Source: Podospora anserina (lineage: Eukaryota). Taken from it: a DNA stretch of 64,000 nt. Under the pieces are notes generated by a model. The model worked only from the letters and a program-made list of their open reading frames with translations, did no database searches and was not told where the DNA came from. Below are positions 3,587 to 15,556 of this stretch, piece after piece; position 1 is the first letter of the stretch, and every line of letters begins with the position of its first letter. The position numbers were made by a program, and so were the translations under genes. Where the stretch lies: positions 4,650,001 through 4,714,000 of the forward strand of contig CM030333.1 in assembly GCA_017654855.1 (NCBI GenBank), given 5' to 3'.

Positions 3587-5680
3587 TCACAGAGTAAAGT
3601 TCATACTCGCACTCCTACTCCCCTCCCCACCCTGCCCTTTCAAATGGGCACTCGACCCCTTGAATAGACTCTGCCAGATATAGGCTTCACTCAGCAGCAG
3701 CTCAATGTCCTTTTCCGTCCAGTCACCCGTCGGCAACGACTGCAAAAACATCATGATTTCTTGAAAGTCCATCTTTACCAGCTTGTCTGACCACTTTACC
3801 AAAAAGGCGGCACAGACGTATAGGTGGAATTCCGAGAAGCCTTGTTCTTCCGCCTGTTGATTTGTTAGCTTGTTTCTCCCCAGGAATGCAAAGGGGGCCA
3901 GAAGTGCCTACCATGTATGTATCCCACATCCGTATCGTGTTCTTGACACTTATTTCTCTCATCAACAGGCAGTTCATCCACCTGAAACTAAACTGGATGA
4001 ATTCCACCTGCTCCTTCTCCAAGTGCTTCGCCAGCCCGGCATCAATTCTCGCCGTCAGGTCCCGCAGTGCCGAAACCTGTCTCTGGATTCCTGGCTGCGC
4101 CACGATATAATGGTCCTGGATCCCGTCCAGCAATTTAGTCAGACACCAGAATGAATCCGCCTCCACCGCGTCAAGAACCGCCTTAGGGAGCTGCCCCGGA
4201 TCCATACCACTTTCGATATCTGGGTCTGTGATGTATGTTCCCAAGAAAACTTGCCAAAATGGTGTCACTAGGTCGTTGATACCCTGGACATAGCCGCTGG
4301 CCGGGTGACGGACAGCCCAAACGTACAGAATGCGCTCAAGAGACCGCTGCGTAGCTTCGTAGCTGTAGAGTTCGATATGCGGGTTTGTGCGGGGGACATC
4401 GATACTGATTTGATGCCAGATGGCCTCGTCTAGGCCTCGGTTCGTTCCTCGGGGTGGTGCACTGCTTCCTGGCGCTGGTTGCCCGCCTCCTCCGAAGGCT
4501 TGGCGCACGCCGTCAAGGTATTCTTTTCTTTTTCGTTCGAGTGTGGCTACCCTTCTTTCCGAGCTGGTAGGGAGGTAGCTGAGAAGCAGTTGCCAGGTCA
4601 TGGCGCGAACCTCTTCTGGGACGCCAGACCATGCCAGTGACCGGAGATCTGGTAGTGGGATAGTAGAGGCTTGGAGGAGCTTCTTGAACTTGTTTATTCT
4701 TGATATCCTTGAATTTATGGCGTCAACTTCTTTCGGGGTGGCATTGGCGGGTATCGAGGGGTGGTTGATTAGGTGCAAGGCGTTTGCCGGATCGCGCAAG
4801 ATCTCCTTATACTGTGGTCGTAGAATCTTTCCTTCACTCTTCTTCGGCATCGGGTAACTTGCTGCTGGCCTCTCGATCGCTATGTCTTCGCTGTTCGAGT
4901 AGCGTCTTTCTCGACCGCCGCCATTGAGTCCGTCGTCCAGATGCGCCCTGCTTTGTTCCGCCTTTTTTCTTGTCCTCCTCTTCATGTTGGATAGACTGGG
5001 AAGCCCAAAATCGTCTCCGTCGTCCGACTCATAGTCATACATATCCTCTGCTTCGTCGGCGGTCCAGTCATCGTTGGTACTGGAAAGGAAGTTCATGTAT
5101 TGCTTGAAAGGTGGTGATTTGCTGATTCGTGTGGTCGGGGATTGTGTCGGGACTCGTTCAATGGCCGACGTCGCTGATGGCGGGGTTCTTGGGCGCGATC
5201 CGGACCCAGATATATTTCTACCCCCTGATCAGTCCTGCACATGGAAATGTCCTGGGGGAAAACCCACAAGGAATCAAACTTGAGAATGTCGGCATGTGAA
5301 TAGGCGGCGCCGACTACCAGACTCGAGTCGCGTGCTGGCTTCTTTAAAGGCGGGGTGTCCCGCTGAGGGGCCTTCCAGAACGGTGAAGCAGAGCTGTCGA
5401 TGTCACTGTCAGTATCCCTGAGAATACACAGCAGGTTCTTCTAGAAGGTGTATTGCATACTCGGACCTCTCTACAATCCATCCAAGGGTATAGTTAGTAT
5501 GCAGGTATTCTGGGAATCAAAGCGGGCGCGAACTGCACATACCAACTTGCACCATCTCCTGCTGCAGAGCACAGTTCCGTCAGTCGCTGCCAGAGGTACA
5601 TAGGATGGGCTGAGAACAGGCCGACGGAAGCTTACCTGGGGAGTGGCCTTCTTGCCGCCGGCGGAAGAAGAAAACATCAT
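3587..5680 (-). CDS. GYP1: TBC-domain Rab GTPase-activating protein, Gyp1 (TBC1D22) family
   Basis: TBC motifs LAWSGVP, IDVPRT, YVQGINDL and EADSFW; last intron at about 3912-3856 joins ..WDTYM to AEEQGFSEFHLYVC..LLLSEAYIW. Short 5' exons inferred from ATG 5680 (MMFSSSAGGKKATPQ/GTAAGC); the 5' structure is less certain. Confidence 0.9.
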
Positions 5681-6286
5681 GAAGTACTGAAGAGGTCGTC
5701 TTGCAATGGCATGACCTTGGATCAGGAGACTGGTTGATTTATTGGTCTTGGTAGAGAGGCGCCAGTTCAATGTCTGGGCTTCAAGAGAGGCCAGCTGTTG
5801 CCAGCTTGGAGCCAGTTGATGGCCCTTTGATCGCTGGCTGGGCTAACACAGGAAGGTGCATGGCTGACTGACCTGAGGTAGACTGCCTGGCCAGTGCGTC
5901 ATTCCCCATTCCCCGCCCAAGCGCCCGCAGCTGCTCAGATTCCAGGGGCCCAGCCACTGGGTGAATGCCTGGCCAGGCTGGGAGACCCACTTTGACACAA
6001 CAGGAACTGCGCCTTGACTTTTTGGCAAGCTTCGCAGTCGAACTCTGACTTCCAGTCAACAACTTTATCCGTCCTTCACCAACCAGGAACGCATTTTTGA
6101 TTGCCGGTATCGATTTCTTCATTTCGGAGCAGTTGGTCGTTGGCCCTCTTTTCACTTCTCTTACCGACTCTTCGCTTCGTTTGTTTTATATTCGGCGCCC
6201 GTACTTAATTCCACTACTCGGCGCGATACCGCGTTTGACATCTTGACCACCACCACGACCAAAGGCGCGTGGAGAACACCGACATC

Positions 6287-9200
6287 ATGACAGAACCCGA
6301 GAACTTCGACGATGAGCTGTTTGCCGATCTGTAAGTCGCATCTTTTTATACTTCCTGATGGTCATGATGAGCAGGCGCTAACCAGCGACAGCTATAACGA
6401 CGATGATGCGGCACCAGCGCCCAAGCCGGCTGCCGCAGCCCAGCCTGTTCAGTACGCAGCCGTGCAACCGACCATCGAGACCCGGCAGAATGACAGCTAC
6501 GACCCCAATCAGTACAACGACTACGGTGGTGGAGGTGAAAATGGCAACATCAACCAGGACGATGAAGAAGAAGAGGACGATGACGATGACATCGATTTCA
6601 ACCTCGGAAACGGCCCTTCGACCACGCTGGCCCCCCATGACCAGCAAGACTACAATGACAGCCATAACAACAACAACAACAACAACAGCAGCAGCAGCAG
6701 CAACAACAACAACTCTCACCATGAGGAGAGGCAGTCCTACAGTGCGCCCTCGGCGCCTCCTGCTCATACCAAAGGCCCCAATGCCAAAGAAGACGGGTAA
6801 GTCAAAATCTCTGTTTGTTGACATTTGACAAGTGTGCATTATGAATCATGTGAACCGCGCCACTTCGATCGGACCACTATGCCGGTAGAGCAAGGTGGGA
6901 AGGGCTGGGAAAGGGAGGAAGCTGGGCAAGGGCTACGGGATCAAAGGCTGCGGCCTGGCATGGTTGAGGATATGGGAAACTGGGCCAGCAAGAGGCAGGT
7001 CTCGTGGTGGACAAAATCATGCAAAGATGATATTGCAGAGAGCGGTGCGACATGTGTGTTGCCAGGCAATGTGTAATGCCGTCAAGAGGAGGGCTGTGCT
7101 GTGAGGGTTGGCCTCCCAAAGACATACCGAAAACATGCGCCAAAATACGATAATGGATGAGGAGTCATGCTCCTGCCCTCTGTATCCCAGTCGCAGATAA
7201 TCTTAGCTCTGAAGGCTAGAGAAAGATATCGCAGCGAATAGCGCAGCAACCAGGACAGACGTACCTAGCTTGACGATAGGCAAGAAGAGCTCGAGACAGG
7301 AAACAAGAAAGATTTCGACAAGACCTTTTGCTGGCACTCCTGCGCTGCACCTTCCTTCTCAGTTGTGGGAACCTGCTGTGCATCGCATCAGTTCTGAACA
7401 ACGGCTTGAATTCTTCTGCTGCGACCGCCGCCACAATGGAGCATCACAACACGACTCGACCTCCGCCCTCTTCTCCCGAAGACTACATTCCTTTATCACC
7501 AAGCGATGCTTCTGGGGATGACGGTGTACTCGGCCGAGACTACATTCCTCTTTCCTCCAGCGACTCCTCCCCGCCCATCTTTTCAACCTCATCGCCACTT
7601 TCATGCTCGGCCATCTCGCTAGGCACAGCAGAGGAACTAGGAGATCACAGCACCAGTAGCGAGGATGGCGACTCGTGTGATGAACCCTCCCCGAGGATCA
7701 TATACGCGAAGAAAGACAATAGGTGTGAACTTTAGGCAGCGGCGACCAAAAACACACACGGGAAGCAGCATTGGTTCAATGTTTGCTTTTCCAACCCACC
7801 CTCCCATCTTACTCTTTTTTATTTCTCCCGAGCCTGTCTCTCTCTCTCCCCCCCCCCTCTTTTTCCATCCGAACCGGTGTAGTCAGCCGGGTTTGTTTGC
7901 CAGCCAACCCAGCGGACAAGCATTTTGATACACAAAAACACAATCCAAGCTTTCCGGAGGTCGGAGGAGAGCAGGAGGAGGGGAGAAGGGGGGAATTGAA
8001 GGAATGATCTGGCTCTTCTTTTTTTTACTTGGCCGATAAGATGCTAATAAAAACAATGTTTCATGATTGTTATTTCATGAGATAAAAGAGAAAATGAAGC
8101 TAACTCTACGGCACGATGTGCCGCTGTATTTTAGAAAAATGTTCATCGGCGGTCTCAACTGGGAAACCACCGACCAGTCCCTCCGCGACTACTTTTCCAC
8201 CTTTGGGGAGGTGGTCGAGTGCACCGTCATGAGAGATGGCGCGACGGGCCGGTCGCGCGGGTTTGGGTTTCTGACCTTCAAGGATCCCAAGACGGTGAAT
8301 ATCGTCATGGTGAAGGAGCATTATCTTGATGGGAAGATTGTACGTCTTTGTTCCCCCATCTTCCTTCCCTGTTGGTCATTTGTGAGAGATATACTGACTG
8401 GAGATGGGGAAAAAAGATCGATCCCAAGCGCGCCATCCCCCGTGATGAGCAGGAAAAGACAAGCAAGATTTTCGTTGGAGGCGTTAGTCAGGAAACCACG
8501 GATCATGAGTTCAGGGAGTATTTTGCCCAGTTTGGCCGGGTGGTGGACGCCACGTTGATGATGGACAAGGACACCGGTCGTCCGCGCGGGTTCGGCTTCG
8601 TCACGTTCGAGTCTGAGGCCGGGGTGGAGGCTTGTCTCTCTGCCAACCTTGAGATCCACGGCAAACCCATCGAGGTCAAGAAGGCTCAACCGAGGGGCAA
8701 CCTCAGGGAGGAAGAGGAGAATAACCGCCGTGGTGGGGGTGCGGGAGGCAAGTTTGGGAAGCGTGGTGGACAGGGTGGGAATGGAATGGACGATGGGGGT
8801 CAAATGGGCGGGATGGGCGGGATGGGTGGTGGTCAGGGGGCCGGGGGGATGACGCCGCAGGTGATGGCGCAGTATTTCCAGCGGATGCAGCAGGCGATGA
8901 GCATGATGCAGCAGCAGATGATGATGAACCGGAACATGAACCCGGCCATGATGCAGATGATGCAGATGCAGCAGATGCAACAGATGCAGGCCATGATGCA
9001 GCAGGCTCAGGGTGGGAGAGGGGGCGGAGGACAGAACCCCATGGCGGCGATGGGGCAGATGAACCCGGCCATGATGCAGCAGATGCAGGCCATGATGGCT
9101 CAGCAGGCGGCGCAGGGAGGTGGTCCTGGCGGTCCTGGGGGGCCGATGCCTCCTGCTGGTGGCCCTGGAAGTGTCGGTGGTCCTGGTAGTCCCATGGGCA

Positions 9201-9712
9201 TGCACGATCAGGTTGGCAGTCCCATTGGTAGCTCTGGTCAGGGAGGCGGCGCCAAGGCTGGTTTCAACGCCTACGAGCAGCAGCAGTTTGAGCAGCAAAA
9301 GTACGAGCAGCAGCAGCAGCAGGGCCGGAGGGGTGGTAGCAGAGGCGCTCCCGACATGCAGGCTGCCTACAACCAGGGAGGGTATGGCGGCAACGGCGGC
9401 GGCGGTAGCATGAGCTCGCAGGGCGGACAGGGCGCTCCGACCAGCTGGGAGGGCATGTATGATGATGTCCCTCAGCCGATCATGTCTACCGGCGGTGGTG
9501 GCGGCTACGGTGGTGGAGGCCGGAATTTCAAGAACCGCGGACACAACAACCAGCACCAAATGTCCATGTCGCCTGGCCCGTCTGACCCTATGAACGCCCC
9601 TCCTGCTAATGCCCCGACGGGACCCAAGAACGCTGGTAGACCTGGCGCCAACATGTACCGTGGTGGTGGAAGGGGAGGTGCCCGTGGGTACCATCCTTAT
9701 GCCAGAGGCTAG
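6287..9712 (+). CDS. HRP1: Hrp1/Nab4-type two-RRM hnRNP (Musashi/hnRNP A-like) with G/M/Q-rich low-complexity domain
   Basis: Exons 6287-6330, 6392-6796, 8135-8339 and 8417-9712. RRM1 [20 protein letters not shown]2 [18 protein letters not shown] boxes, and C-terminal [14 protein letters not shown]. Confidence 0.92.
7363..7722 (+). other. Putative alternative (cassette or first) exon inside HRP1 intron 2
   Basis: Acceptor CCTTCCTTCTCAG at 7362 and donor AG/GTGTGA at 7723 are both phase 2, like the flanking exons. 360 nt, stop-free, with an internal Kozak GCCGCCACAATGG at 7436. Confidence 0.5.
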
Positions 9713-9992: not shown

Positions 9993-10940
9993 TCACTGAT
10001 ACAACCTCGTGAATCCCCCCTCCGGCGGCTGCAGCCAATTCCTCTCATCATACTTGTACCCCTCCCCCTGCTCAATAACATGAAAAGTATAAATAATCCT
10101 CCCCTTTTTGCTCAAATTCCTCTCACTCTTGTGAAGCAAATTCCCATGAATCAGCACCAAATCACCCGCCTTCACCTCCCCCATGACGTACTCTTCTTCC
10201 TCTACCTTTTTATCCTCCCCATACTTCATCTCCCTCGTATCCCTCGGAAACTGTCTTCCCTCATTCTCCACCATCTCCGCCCCCGTCCTCCCCCCTCTGA
10301 CCAACCTCTGCCTGATCCGACTCCAAAGATGGCTCCCAGGCAAAAAACTCAAACACCCATTCTCCCTCGTCGCATCCTCAAGCGCATACCAAAACCCAAC
10401 CGCAGACGGAGGGTCGGTGTACAGAAACGTGCTATCCTGATGAGGCGGCACCGCTCCCCCTATCTCGGGCTGCTTGCAGATAACCATGCTCTGCAGACAC
10501 CTTGGGTCCTCGAACCCGAGATCCTTTGCTACATCTTTTGGCAACGCCCTCTGCCCTGGCACCCCCTTCAACAGTTCTGCAAACGGGGGGGAGAGGCCGT
10601 GGAGAAAGTGACCGATCTTGTTGACGGCTAAATGTTTGGGTTTTGTGAGTTGGCCGTCGGGGCCAAAGGCGTCTTGCTCGAAGAAGAAGCGGATTTTGTC
10701 GCCCGAGGAGAGGAAGTAGTCGTCGCCTACGTGGTCGGTGCCGTCTTGCCCGCCGGTGGAGAATTTTGTCAGGGGGTGAGTGGTGATGTCGAGGGAGGAG
10801 AGGAGGGAGTGGGTTTCGTTGAGGAGGTTGGTGACGGTGGTGGGGGGGAGGGCCGAGGGGATGATGAGGTAGCCGTTGGTGTGGAAGAAGGAGAGTTGTT
10901 CCGGGGTGAGGCCGGGTTTGGGTTCCGAGGAGGTGGACAT
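9993..10940 (-). CDS. Phytanoyl-CoA dioxygenase (PhyH/PHYHD1-like) Fe(II)/2OG oxygenase
   Basis: 315-aa intronless ORF: LTPEQLSFFHTNGYLII, QSMVICKQPEIGGAVPPHQD (HxD), ENGCL, HGNLLHKSERN. Confidence 0.93.
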   Translation of the reverse strand: MSTSSEPKPGLTPEQLSFFHTNGYLIIPSALPPTTVTNLLNETHSLLSSLDITTHPLTKFSTGGQDGTDHVGDDYFLSSGDKIRFFFEQDAFGPDGQLTKPKHLAVNKIGHFLHGLSPPFAELLKGVPGQRALPKDVAKDLGFEDPRCLQSMVICKQPEIGGAVPPHQDSTFLYTDPPSAVGFWYALEDATRENGCLSFLPGSHLWSRIRQRLVRGGRTGAEMVENEGRQFPRDTREMKYGEDKKVEEEEYVMGEVKAGDLVLIHGNLLHKSERNLSKKGRIIYTFHVIEQGEGYKYDERNWLQPPEGGFTRLYQ

Positions 10941-13463: not shown

Positions 13464-15556
13464 CTATGACAGCTTAACATCATTGACAAACCGCTCTTTC
13501 CCTCTCTTCACTATCCTCACAGGCACATGTTTGCCCCCGTGTAACTTGAGCGTCAGGACCGACGTTGCCTTATTCAGTGTCTTTTGCGCTTTTGCCTGAG
13601 CCTTCTTGTAGAGCTCTCTTCTGGCTGCTGCGTCCATATTCTCCACCTCCCCGTCGCTCGCCCACTCGTCCACCGCGAGCTCCACACTATACTTTTGAAA
13701 AATCACCGCCAGCACAGCATTCATCTCCACCATGGCGATTCGGCGTCCCAAGCATGACCGAGGTCCATCACTGAAGGGAATGTAGCTACCCCTGACCGGC
13801 CGATAGAACGAGGCGCTGGTGTCACTCCCCTGAAAGCCGCCATAATCCACCCCATCGCCTTCCTCGTCCTTCTCATCGTCGGTTCCTGTGTTCTGAGTTT
13901 GGTACCACCTGTCGGGCAGAAAATCGTCAAGATCCGTAGGGGCGCCAGTCTTCTCTGATGATTTGGTGGGCCAAAATCGCGGGTTGCGCTGTACGCTGAC
14001 GGCCATCAGGTTACACGAAAGTCCTGAAGGTAAAACATGAGTCTTCCCCTGAGCTGTGATGGTCTGATCCGAGCTGGCCGAGACAACTTTGGGAATAAGC
14101 GTGACCGGTGGCATCAAACGGAGCGTCTCGTTGATGCAGGCACCAATGTGGCTGGCCGTCATGGCATTGATGTTCTTTTCATAGTCCCAGGTTGATGGGT
14201 CGGAGTCTCCAAACAAAGAATCGACATCCTTTTGCAGACGGCGTTGCGTGGCAGGGTTGATTGCGAGCTCGGCAATGGCGAAGTGAAGTGTGTTGGCGGT
14301 TGTTTCATGGCCGGCTACGATCATAATGAAAGCATTGCCGACGATTTCAGCGTCGTCAAGACCGGCTTGTTTAGCTTTTTCAGACGGGGAGAGGCCGTAT
14401 TTCGATTGAACGAGCTGTCCCATGATGTCCATTCCCTCCTTGGTAGATTCGCCAGCCTGGGCCTCCTTCGCCTTGTCGCGCAAGAATTCATCCATGTACT
14501 GGAGATAGTTGGCCTTGGCCTCGTAAGTGTAGCTCGCAAATTTGAAGGGTAGATGTTCTAGGACAATGTAAGTTTGTGATGATGATGATCAAGACCAAAA
14601 AATGGGCAACATACTAAGAAGAAAGTCGGGAAAAACAAGAATGGTGATAATCTTGTCCAAGGTCCGCTCAACTGATTTGGCAAAGGTGATGGAATGTCCG
14701 TCTGGAGGATCCAGACTGCCATACTTGACCAGCTTAGGGTCGGTGTCTTCAGGCATTTTCTGATTTGGCCACAATAAACGAAGGCCAAAGCCAACATAGC
14801 CGATGACATTCAGCGCCCAAGTCATGGTGTCATGCTCGAGTGTTGTGATGGTCTTGGTCGTGCCCTTGGTCTCTCCGCCCGCACCAAAGAGCTCGTCCAA
14901 CATACCACGGGTCTGGTAGATGGCCTCGGAAAAGGTGTGAGCAGCATTCTTCTCGTTGAAACTGGCACTCGTAACCTTCCGGTGTAGCCTCCAGGTCTGA
15001 GCTTCGGTGGTGAGAACATTGTGACCAAACATGCTGAGAAGACTGTATTTGTCAATGTCCTTGGGAAAGGCCTCACGACGCTGCGTGATTCTATGAATGA
15101 CCTCGGCATCTTGAGTATACATCAAGATGTCATAAGGAGAAACAGTCAGGAATGTGTCAGTCCCAAGGTACTCGAAGACTTTCTGACCAGTTGAATAGGC
15201 CCAGTCAGGAGTCATAACCCTACATAGTGTTAGTTGAACAAACGCCTCACCCAAGACTGCTCAACTCACAGTAATCGGTACTCCCATATCCATTTTGGGA
15301 GGATCTTGATCATAGGTGACCAAATCTTGATTCCAAGCTGCCACCATAGTCCTATTGGTGAGGCATCTAGATATCTAGTGTGTCAGTGTTTGATCATGGC
15401 ACTCAAGATAGATGTCGATATCTTTCACTTACGAACCACAAAGTATTTAAGTCCCGTCTTTCGAGCAATGAGCACATTTCGCCGCCATGCCGCAAAATAA
15501 GAGAACACAGCATACGCCACTGCCGCGCTAAGCGCTGCCCATAATGTAAACAGCAT
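13464..15556 (-). CDS. Cytochrome P450 monooxygenase
   Basis: N-terminal TM anchor (MLFTLWAALSAAVAYAVF), three introns, I-helix AGHETTA, K-helix ETLR, PDRW and heme motif FSDGPRSCLG. Confidence 0.95.

What the first reader, a model, noticed from the sequence alone, without database searches (positions are those of the whole stretch)
7363..7735. Hidden frame-compatible exon with its own Kozak ATG in the 1.34 kb HRP1 intron
Seen: intron 2 (6797-8134) is about 20 times longer than typical introns here. It holds a stop-free 360-nt segment bounded by a pyrimidine-rich acceptor (7362) and a donor (AG/GTGTGA, 7723), both phase 2 like the constitutive junction. Splicing gives ..YAKKDNR-KMFIGG, echoing the constitutive ..NAKEDG-KMFIGG. 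A textbook Kozak (GCCGCCACAATGG) lies at 7436. Inference: three outcomes are possible. These are a +120-aa cassette isoform, an alternative first exon giving a different N-terminus on the same RRMs, or an RRM-less product ending at TAG 7733-7735 if the weak donor is skipped. A second AG at 7391 would give a poison exon (stop at 7519-7521). This looks like an autoregulatory splicing switch in a 3'-end-processing hnRNP. No canonical branch point is visible before 7362.
Basis: partly seen in the sequence, partly recalled or inferred. Interest (0 to 1): 0.72.

Follow-up and report, generated by a model that had tools for sequence, protein, structure and literature searches.

The report
Alternative first exon inside HRP1's long intron
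The open frame inside the long intron of this fungal RNA-processing gene (HRP1) is most likely a real alternative first exon that gives the protein a different N-terminus, and it sits just downstream of a stretch of non-coding DNA conserved across distant fungi.

Summary
The window is Podospora anserina-complex chromosome 2, and the gene is the HRP1/Nab4 orthologue.

RNA contigs from 4 studies confirm the junction 6796>8135. They also show that the 1338-nt intron persists in RNA, while introns 1 and 3 do not.

The exon is not hidden. ATG 7436 and donor 7722 form the first coding exon of the public models (QC761-764_212560). The P. anserina annotation splits the gene in two, with exons 1-2 called Pa_2_12550.

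The orthologous intron is 1103-1364 nt in 11 distinct related fungi. As a whole the ORF peptide is not conserved. A short acidic motif, (E/D)(Y/F)I(P/S)L followed by S/D/E, recurs in frame at the same place. It also occurs in alternative N-termini annotated in six genera of three orders.

Directly upstream, 7214-7379 is a non-coding block with a 55-nt core that reaches Leotiomycete-like loci.

Verdict: alternative first exon, about 0.6. The cassette and poison-exon readings are not supported.

The parts
6287..6330 (+). HRP1 exon 1 (canonical start, [14 protein letters not shown]..)
   Evidence: RNA contigs start at 6060-6085 and skip 6331-6391 in 4/4 runs. The N-terminus is shared with orthologues. 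It is the CDS start of Pa_2_12550 by the Table S1 arithmetic.
6392..6796 (+). HRP1 exon 2 (acidic, low-complexity N-terminal region ending ..NAKEDG)
   Evidence: Joint 6796>8135 in 4/4 runs. The junction AKEDG|KMFIGG is conserved in orthologues. dN/dS is 0.066 between L008 and L067.
6797..8134 (+). Intron 2 of the transcript from the upstream promoter (1338 nt). It also persists in RNA.
   Evidence: GT..AG skip in 4/4 runs. An unbroken RNA contig 6767-8163 occurs in 3 runs and 6767-7981 in the fourth. Bin arithmetic shows no contig cover in introns 1 and 3. Orthologous introns are 1103-1364 nt. An in-frame TAA lies at 6798-6800.
7214..7379 (+). Conserved non-coding block, with the core at about 7224-7283
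   Evidence: It is the only blastn-alignable part of the intron (74-82% identity, 9 loci). nhmmer finds it in 12/12 mapped introns. The core is found in 21 loci at E<1e-7 and 12 more weakly, always on the + strand upstream of RRM1. Most copies have stops in every frame. There is no covariation, the folding z-score is +1.55, and there is no Rfam match.
7350..7362 (+).
   Evidence: The CT-rich run is conserved, but the AG is kept in only 2 of 9 aligned sequences.
7436..7722 (+). Coding part of alternative first exon 1b (MEHH...YAKKDNR, ending in phase 2)
   Evidence: It is the annotated first exon in four sibling species. ATG-led ORFs start 57-88 nt after the block in orthologous introns. No RNA joint was seen.
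7481..7513 (+). Motif copy 1: [11 protein letters not shown]
   Evidence: The same motif occurs in orthologous ORFs and in annotated alternative N-termini.
7538..7570 (+). Motif copy 2: [11 protein letters not shown], 57 nt after copy 1 and in frame
   Evidence: Six of the 9 differences between the copies are at third codon positions, by my count.
7723..8134 (+). Intron of the exon 1b transcript (donor GTGTGA, shared branch point and acceptor)
   Evidence: From the sequence only. The junction is used in the public models. It was not seen in RNA contigs.
8135..8339 (+). Exon 3 (RRM1, [12 protein letters not shown]..)
8417..9712 (+). Exon 4 (RRM2, M/Q-rich region, ..HPYARG, TAG 9710-9712)
   Evidence: Pfam RRM_1 at E 6.5e-17.

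Best explanation
The gene is the HRP1/Nab4 (cleavage factor IB, hnRNP-type) orthologue of the Podospora anserina complex. It has two alternative 5' ends that converge on the RRM1 exon at 8135.

The upstream promoter gives exons 1-2 (6287-6330 and 6392-6796). These carry the acidic ..[10 protein letters not shown].. N-terminus and are spliced across the 1338-nt intron.

Inside that intron lies a second first exon, exon 1b. It has its own ATG at 7436 and a weak in-phase donor at 7722/7723. It replaces the canonical N-terminus with a disordered S/P/D/E-rich one. The only constrained part of that N-terminus is a short linear motif, (E/D)(Y/F)I(P/S)L followed by Ser/Asp/Glu, which is present twice here.

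The 166-nt conserved non-coding block at 7214-7379 ends 56 nt before the ATG. It is most simply the promoter or 5' leader of exon 1b, or a cis element that decides the fate of the intron.

Shown: the gene structure, the persistence of the intron in RNA, the conservation of intron length, block, ORF position and motif, and the identity with public models.

Inferred: that exon 1b is transcribed from an internal start, spliced to exon 3 and translated, and what the motif and the block do.
For: 1. Four sibling-species models read MEHH..YAKKDNR|KMFIGG, exactly ATG 7436 plus donor 7722.

2. The orthologous intron is 1103-1364 nt in 11 distinct relatives (12 loci, L039=L040).

3. In 8 of 11 introns (window included) the longest + strand open run has shuffle P 0.016-0.076. 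In 7 of these it lies downstream of the block; in L039 it lies upstream. The other three have P 0.27, 0.37 and 0.54. On the - strand only 1 of 11 is below 0.05.

4. The first ATG of these ORFs lies 57-88 nt after the block's end in window, L008, L067, L015, L071, L078, L072, L014 and L039.

5. I noted the motif in the window before I saw any orthologue. The strict pattern [DE][YF]I[PSA]L occurs in 4 of 10 orthologous introns on + frames and 0 on - frames. The shuffle mean total is 0.032, and 0 of 1000 shuffles reach 4. L008, L015 and L067 are related to each other.

6. Further in-frame copies are L009 EDYISLSPSSD and L001 GFIPLESEGDESDED, with weaker ones in L078 and L014.

7. Leu is encoded by TTA, CTT, CTC and TTG, Ile by ATT and ATC, and Pro/Ser by CCT, CCC, TCG and TCT. 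That is conservation at the residue level.

8. Of 110 annotated HRP1 models, 16 have a non-canonical N-terminus longer than 25 aa. Eleven of these carry the motif directly upstream of KMFIGG: Podospora x4, Thermothielavioides PDFIALDSDDD, Mycothermus PEYIAIDSS, Daldinia EEDYIPFNSDD, Anthostomella EEEYIPLTSD, and Diaporthe x3 EEDYLS(L/F)KVED (four of the eleven were read by eye).

9. In-phase GT sites lie shortly before the ORF's stop in window, L071 and L078. A shared AAG|GTYGGG occurs in L008, L067 and L015.
Against: - No 7722>8135 joint was found in RNA contigs of 4 runs from 4 studies. Contigs drop rare forms, so this is weak evidence.
- Table S1 of PMC9801653 lists no StringTie transcript for Pa_2_12560 from any of 37 datasets.
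- A search of short proteins found no transcript-derived protein carrying the junction peptide (4 hits of 19 candidates, all RRM1 only).
- The whole-exon dN/dS between L008 and L067 is 0.77, the same as in shifted frames (0.72-0.76). For exon 2 it is 0.066. The exon diverges (0.13) as fast as the flanking intron (0.077 and 0.146).
- Codon usage and GC3 look non-coding.
- phmmer against 1.84 billion representatives gave 0 hits. tblastn against 80 loci gave 0 HSPs.
- L039, L072 and L068 show no motif. Leotiomycete-like loci show no such ORF or motif.
- In the species complex 8 of 96 exon 1b columns vary, against about 5 of about 499 in the rest of the protein.
- Gene predictors will take any ATG-led ORF with an in-phase GT, so the models themselves are not independent proof. 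Only the shared motif is.
Confidence: 0.6

Rival explanations
1. The ORF is non-coding sequence in a regulated, partly retained or prematurely terminated intron. The public models that start at MEHH are artefacts of a predictor that could not bridge a 1.3-kb intron, and the motif is kept for a reason at the nucleotide level. The functional part is the conserved block. That block would be a binding platform, perhaps for Hrp1 itself (it holds three invariant UAGC), which holds the intron in the RNA or ends transcripts there. This would yield a truncated mRNA (Pa_2_12550, 149 aa, stop TAA 6798-6800) and lower full-length HRP1.
For: - The intron is covered by RNA contigs joined to both flanking exons in 4/4 runs, while introns 1 and 3 have no cover.
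- StringTie transcripts for Pa_2_12550 end inside the block at window 7372 and 7317 in 2 of 37 datasets (my coordinate arithmetic).
- The block is far better conserved than the ORF: 1 difference in 163 against 33 in 254 between L008 and L067.
- dN/dS is about 0.77, and codon usage looks random.
- Yeast HRP1 is negatively autoregulated by an attenuator in its own mRNA (passages of PMC12247754).
Against: - The Leu, Ile, Pro and Ser codons of the motif vary synonymously among lineages whose introns are otherwise unalignable.
- The motif always lies in the frame of the ATG-led long ORF and never on the - strand.
- It recurs in annotated N-termini of three orders.
- A regulatory intron and a coding exon 1b do not exclude each other.
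Confidence: 0.2
2. The ORF is translated on its own as a small protein of about 99 aa (MEHH...CEL, stop TAG 7733-7735). It would be made from unspliced intron-containing or internally started RNA and would not be joined to the RRMs.
For: - The donor GTGTGA is weak.
- A 99-aa ORF call with this reading exists in the protein collection (P0126).
- Orthologous ORFs run on for variable lengths after the candidate donors.
Against: - In-phase GT sites recur just before the stop.
- The parts after those sites are not conserved, even between the close pair L008 and L067.
- P0126 is an ORF call on a contig, not evidence of translation.
Confidence: 0.1
3. The segment 7363-7722 (or 7392-7722) is a cassette or poison exon included between exon 2 and exon 3. 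It would form an autoregulatory splicing switch coupled to nonsense-mediated decay.
For: - The phase arithmetic works, and the 7391 acceptor would bring in a stop at 7519-7521.
- hnRNP and SR genes of animals and plants often use such switches. This rests on general knowledge and on abstracts in the search listing.
Against: - The AG at 7361-7362 is kept in 2 of 9 aligned sequences.
- No branch-point consensus lies upstream.
- The frame relation between the block and the motif differs among loci.
- No 6796>7363 or 6796>7392 joint was seen in 4 runs.
- No protein of 217 aa or more holds the ORF peptide together with a canonical N-terminus; only the P0003 cluster was found.
- Table S2 of PMC9801653 lists no splicing event for Pa_2_12550 or Pa_2_12560.
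Confidence: 0.05

Closest known systems
Public gene models QC761_212560, QC762_212560, QC763_212560 and QC764_212560 (Podospora bellae-mahoneyi, pseudocomata, pseudopauciseta, pseudoanserina), and the P. anserina pair Pa_2_12550 / Pa_2_12560
   Same: The models use ATG 7436 and donor 7722 joined to KMFIGG. They are 94-95% identical to the window's ORF. The CDS of Pa_2_12550 maps exactly onto window 6287-6800.
   Different: The models treat exon 1b as the only N-terminus. In P. anserina, exons 1-2 are a separate 149-aa gene. RNA contigs show exons 1-2 spliced to exon 3, and orthologues carry that N-terminus. I did not see the sequence of Pa_2_12560 itself; I infer its start from the sibling models.
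Saccharomyces cerevisiae HRP1/NAB4: negative autoregulation by an Nrd1-Nab3-Sen1 attenuator, and an N-terminal TIM-like motif
   Same: It is the same protein family, with two RRMs, an M/Q-rich region and a C-terminal PY motif. The acidic aromatic N-terminal motif is conserved among fungi. The gene senses its own product through its own RNA. All of this comes from passages of PMC12247754.
   Different: The yeast gene has no such intron and no alternative first exon in what I read. Whether the block here is an attenuator or a promoter is untested. The likeness of YIPLSPS to the Pol II CTD heptad YSPTSPS, and to Nrd1-interaction motifs, is my own reading from recalled knowledge.
Conserved intronic or exonic elements through which animal and plant RNA-binding proteins regulate their own pre-mRNAs (unproductive splicing, poison exons, retained introns)
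   Same: It is an RNA-binding-protein gene with an unusually conserved non-coding element in an intron that persists in RNA.
   Different: No poison-exon junction, no structure signal and no binding data are available here. For these systems I saw only titles and abstracts in the listing.
Magnaporthe oryzae Hrp1 (PMC4288187)
   Same: It is the orthologous protein of a Sordariomycete. It is nuclear, non-essential and regulated post-transcriptionally under carbon starvation (passages).
   Different: The 12 of 36 passages I saw do not mention a long intron, an alternative N-terminus or a conserved element in HRP1.

Membership tests
Alternative first exon (alternative promoter isoform) | Own start codon in a usable context at the head of an open frame | tested here: met
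   ATG 7436 lies in GCCGCCACAATGG and opens a 99-codon ORF. ATG-led ORFs start 57-88 nt after the block in orthologous introns.
Alternative first exon (alternative promoter isoform) | Donor in the right phase, joined in RNA to the shared downstream exon | tested here: inconclusive
   The in-phase TAG|GTGTGA is present and is used by public models. No 7722>8135 joint was seen in contigs of 4 runs, and contigs drop rare forms.
Alternative first exon (alternative promoter isoform) | Own transcription start upstream of the exon | not testable with these tools
   Contigs cannot show RNA starts. Only a conserved block with a CT-rich 3' edge lies where a promoter would be.
Alternative first exon (alternative promoter isoform) | Coding constraint on the exon | tested here: met
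   This is met for a short motif and for the ORF's position only. It is not met for the exon as a whole, where dN/dS is 0.77.
Cassette or poison exon coupled to NMD | Conserved 3' splice site and branch point upstream of the exon | tested here: not met
   The AG is kept in 2 of 9 aligned sequences. There is no CTRAY in 7300-7362.
Cassette or poison exon coupled to NMD | Inclusion junctions in RNA | tested here: not met
   No 6796>7363 or 6796>7392 joint was seen in 4 runs. This is weak evidence, because the runs are contigs.
Retained intron | The intron is present in RNA, contiguous with both flanking exons, while the gene's other introns are removed | tested here: met
   Contig 6767-8163 occurs in X1, X3 and X6, and 6767-7981 in X8. 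The bin figures equal exon cover alone for introns 1 and 3. The strand, and the share due to internally started RNA, are unknown.
HRP1/Nab4 orthologue (hnRNP-type cleavage factor IB) | Two RRMs, an M/Q-rich region, a C-terminal ..HPYAR(G/S), and an acidic N-terminus with LFADLY | tested here: met
   Pfam RRM_1. The protein is 100-55% identical to proteins that their sources name HRP1 or nuclear polyadenylated RNA-binding protein. See also the alignment A2. Function was not tested.
Structured RNA family (Rfam) for the conserved block | A match to a covariance model, or covarying base pairs | tested here: not met
   The best Rfam matches have E 0.35-4.8, far below gathering scores. None of 22 predicted pairs is compensatory. 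The folding z-score is +1.55.
TIM-, NIM- or CTD-like docking motif | Binding to a TFIIS-N-terminal-type domain or a CTD-interacting domain | not tested
   There is only a resemblance: an acidic run plus Y-x-P-x-S-P-S. The yeast TIM-like motif is described in passages of PMC12247754.

The most novel reading that the evidence does not exclude
Sordariomycete HRP1 switches its N-terminal docking motif by promoter choice. The upstream promoter gives the TIM-like ..DELFADLY.. motif known from yeast Hrp1. An internal promoter gives a CTD- or NIM-like acidic YIPLSPS motif. This would re-target the same RRMs to a different part of the Pol II elongation and termination machinery. The switch, together with the persistence of the intron in RNA, would be governed by a non-coding element conserved between Sordariomycetes and Leotiomycetes, possibly bound by Hrp1 itself as a feedback sensor.
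Probability: 0.2. Interest if true: 0.75.

Novelty: new member of a known kind. Interest (0 to 1): 0.55.

Why it matters
Hrp1 links mRNA 3'-end formation, termination and decay, and its dosage is tightly controlled in yeast. If filamentous fungi make two N-terminal isoforms, each with a different short acidic motif, this gives a natural handle on what the N-terminus of Hrp1 docks to.

It also shows that the current Podospora annotation cuts one gene into two (Pa_2_12550 and Pa_2_12560), and that many fungal HRP1 models lack an N-terminus. In one search, 46 of 110 models start within 25 aa of MFIGG.

Non-coding conservation across fungal classes is rare. The 55-nt core makes a regulatory element directly testable by deletion, CLIP or reporter assays.

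My searches and the passages I read found no description of this intron, exon or element. The library lacks most subscription journals, so this is not proof that it is unpublished.

Tried and rejected
- **RNA runs.** No listed holder is on record as RNA. I laid four 'RNA?' runs, and three GT..AG skips show that they hold spliced RNA. No joint was seen at 7363, 7392 or 7722, and contigs cannot show absence.
- **Depth.** Depths are one figure per contig, so I do not rank parts of the gene by them.
- **Whole genome.** None is held for this window.
- **Earlier findings.** Nothing was found.
- **ORF peptide searches.** phmmer of the ORF peptide against 1.84 billion representatives gave 0 hits. The 'longer' search found only the P0003 cluster. 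The 'shorter' search around the junction peptide gave 4 hits, all on the RRM1 part only.
- **Pfam on the ORF and exon 2.** Nothing.
- **Protein atlas.** Best score 0.80, which is uninformative.
- **tblastn of the ORF against 80 loci.** 0 HSPs. This first led me to call the ORF non-coding. I revised that.
- **Rfam, RNAalifold and single-sequence folding of the block.** No signal.
- **Block as a coding exon.** Rejected, because most copies have stops in all frames and three different frames link it to the motif.
- **dN/dS of RRM1 exon 3.** Unusable, because that stretch probably holds an extra intron in those loci.
- **Pa_2_12560 in the literature.** 0 papers.
- **Tables S1 and S2 of PMC9801653.** No entry for Pa_2_12560. 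The two pptx supplements could not be read and may show this locus.
- **A second weak core match.** It lies at window 15521-15541 on the - strand (E 0.017). I took it as chance.
Full report
**What is there**

- Intron 2 runs 6797-8134 (1338 nt).
- A stop-free + frame covers 7280-7735.
- CAG ends at 7362.
- TAG|GTGTGA has its G at 7723.
- Both ends of 7363-7722 are in phase 2.
- The ATG at 7436 lies in GCCGCCACAATGG.
- TAG lies at 7733-7735.
- The alternative AG at 7390-7391 leads to a stop at 7519-7521.

The gene is the HRP1/Nab4 orthologue. Exon 4 is 100% identical to a Podospora bellae-mahoneyi protein and 55-88% identical to proteins that their sources name HRP1 or nuclear polyadenylated RNA-binding protein. 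Pfam finds the RRMs.

**RNA**

No run is on record as RNA. Four 'RNA?' runs from four studies nevertheless hold spliced RNA. Joints 6330>6392, 6796>8135 and 8339>8417, all GT..AG, occur in 4 of 4 runs.

The same runs hold a contig that reads straight through intron 2. It spans 6767-8163 in X1, X3 and X6, and 6767-7981 in X8. For introns 1 and 3 the bin figures equal exon cover alone. For example, in X1 bin 6223-6363, 647.9 x 108/141 = 496.3. So the cover over intron 2 is not DNA carry-over.

Read through from exon 2, the frame stops at TAA 6798-6800. Contigs drop rare forms, so this shows only that such forms are not major.

**The exon is already annotated, and the gene is split**

Four sibling-species models (QC761/762/763/764_212560, 595-596 aa) begin [11 protein letters not shown].. 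and read ..YAKKDNR|KMFIGG.

Table S1 of PMC9801653 gives Pa_2_12550 transcripts with these values:
- TSS 4610332 and 4610356
- TES 4611646 and 4611591
- 5' UTR 230 and 206
- 3' UTR 573 and 518

With an offset of +4,604,274, checked on Pa_2_12570 (window 9993-10940), its CDS is window 6287-6800. That is exons 1-2 plus the TAA just inside the intron. The two transcript ends fall at window 7372 and 7317.

No transcript is listed for Pa_2_12560. The paper's method keeps only predictions that fully overlap one CDS. No splicing event is listed for either gene. The pptx supplements could not be read.

Orthologues from Sordariales to Helotiales carry MTEPENF..LFADLY..AKEDG|KMFIGG. So exons 1-2 belong to HRP1.

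**Chance and coding tests on the window alone**

These tests do not show coding.
- Open-run P is 0.054 and 0.064.
- The codon score is within that of stop-free random sequence (P 0.18 and 0.13).
- GC3 is flat.
- phmmer gave 0 hits.
- In the species complex 8 of 96 ORF columns vary, against about 5 of about 499 elsewhere.

**Relatives**

A metagenome scan gave 80 fungal HRP1 loci. Fourteen hold exon 1. In 12 of them (11 distinct) I could place both ends of intron 2, and it is 1103-1364 nt in all.

tblastn of the ORF peptide found nothing. blastn of the intron found a single block, window 7214-7379, at 74-82% identity.

nhmmer finds the block in 12 of 12 mapped introns, in mid-intron and on the + strand. 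A 55-nt core occurs in 21 loci at E<1e-7 and in 12 more weakly. It is always on the + strand, 360-745 nt upstream of the MFIGG codon.

The core reads GGCAGCG.ATAGCGC ... GTACCTAGC(A/T)T(C/G)ACGATAGCAA(A/G)AG.

By best match to named proteins, the loci that carry it sit next to these groups:
- Cercophora
- Chaetomiaceae
- Phaeoacremonium
- Xylariales
- Helotiales (Hyaloscypha, Drepanopeziza, Lachnellula, Mollisia)

In three Helotiales-like loci the core again lies inside an intron of about 1 kb at the same position.

The block is non-coding and shows no structure signal.

**The turn**

Downstream of the block, most orthologous introns have a long + strand ORF. Shuffle P is 0.016-0.076 in 8 of 11 introns, and in 7 of these the run lies downstream of the block. 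The first ATG of these ORFs lies 57-88 nt after the block's end.

These peptides share the motif I had noted as an in-frame repeat in the window:
- window: [10 protein letters not shown] and [10 protein letters not shown]
- L071: EDYIPLSS
- L009: EDYISLSPSSD
- L008, L067, L015: DFISL..SDS
- L001: GFIPLESEGDESDED

With the window excluded, the strict pattern occurs in 4 of 10 introns on + frames and in none on - frames. The shuffle mean is 0.032, and 0 of 1000 shuffles reach 4. L008, L015 and L067 are kin. The codons vary synonymously.

Independently, 11 of the 16 annotated HRP1 models with a non-canonical N-terminus carry the motif just upstream of KMFIGG. They come from six genera of Sordariales, Xylariales and Diaporthales. 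One of the 16, P0088, is canonical by eye. Four of the 11 motifs were read by eye.

**Against the coding reading**
- The whole-exon dN/dS is 0.77, as in shifted frames, while exon 2 gives 0.066.
- L039, L072 and L068 lack the motif.
- Leotiomycete-like loci show no such ORF.
- No junction-bearing protein fragment exists in the collection.

**Reading**

The most likely reading, at about 0.6, is a real alternative first exon. It would encode a disordered N-terminus whose only constrained parts are a short acidic motif and an open frame. The conserved block would be its promoter or leader, or a cis element that controls the intron's fate.

The rivals are:
- a non-coding ORF in a regulated intron (0.2)
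- a stand-alone product of about 99 aa (0.1)
- a cassette or poison exon (0.05)

Yeast Hrp1 has an N-terminal TIM-like motif and is autoregulated through an attenuator in its own mRNA (passages of PMC12247754). The likeness of YIPLSPS to the CTD heptad is my own observation and is untested.

**Literature**

I found no description of this intron, exon or element. Passages were read from PMC12810187, PMC8216456 and PMC4288187 (12 of 36 places).

Noticed in passing
window 6287-6800 and 7436-9712: The P. anserina annotation appears to split one HRP1 gene into Pa_2_12550 (exons 1-2, with the stop just inside the intron) and Pa_2_12560. RNA contigs join exon 2 to exon 3 in 4/4 runs.
   Followed up: yes
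window 7214-7379; L001-L080 (33 loci): A non-coding block whose 55-nt core holds three invariant TAGC. It is conserved from Sordariales-like to Helotiales-like HRP1 loci, always on the gene's strand and 360-745 nt upstream of RRM1. Its function is unknown.
   Followed up: partly
window 7317 and 7372: Two StringTie transcript ends from Table S1 of PMC9801653 fall inside the conserved block. One lies about 10 nt after a conserved AAGAAA, within TTCG(A/G)CAA. This could be an intronic poly(A) site or only a drop in cover.
   Followed up: partly
L008 versus L067 introns: The 5' half of the intron differs at 0.077 per site and the rest at 0.13-0.146, below the synonymous distance of exon 2 (dS 0.34 on about 70 sites). 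The whole intron may be under some constraint.
   Followed up: no
window 7800-7870 and 8040-8060: A long CT-rich, poly-C tract lies at 7800-7870, and further on there is an AT-rich stretch with AATAAA, both in the 3' part of the intron. The read tool reported that contigs seem cut at 7829-7867.
   Followed up: no
window 6640-6720: CAA/CAG/AGC repeats in exon 2 encode runs of N and S. RNA contigs break there (6656-6719).
   Followed up: no
annotated HRP1 models P0003-P0125: 46 of 110 annotated HRP1 models from many fungi start within 25 aa of MFIGG. They lack any N-terminal exon, probably because predictors fail on the long intron.
   Followed up: partly
window 3726-5228 (-) and 9996-10940 (-): The neighbouring genes are a RabGAP-TBC protein (E 1.8e-39) and a phytanoyl-CoA dioxygenase family protein (E 4.3e-51).
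   Followed up: partly
window 15521-15541 (-): A weak second match to the core profile (E 0.017). It is probably chance.
   Followed up: no
L031, L003, L047, L080, L024: In Helotiales-like loci an ATG lies 41-46 nt after the core. In four of the five (L024 has none), an in-phase GTnnG site follows 12-15 codons later. This could be a very short alternative first exon without the acidic motif.
   Followed up: no
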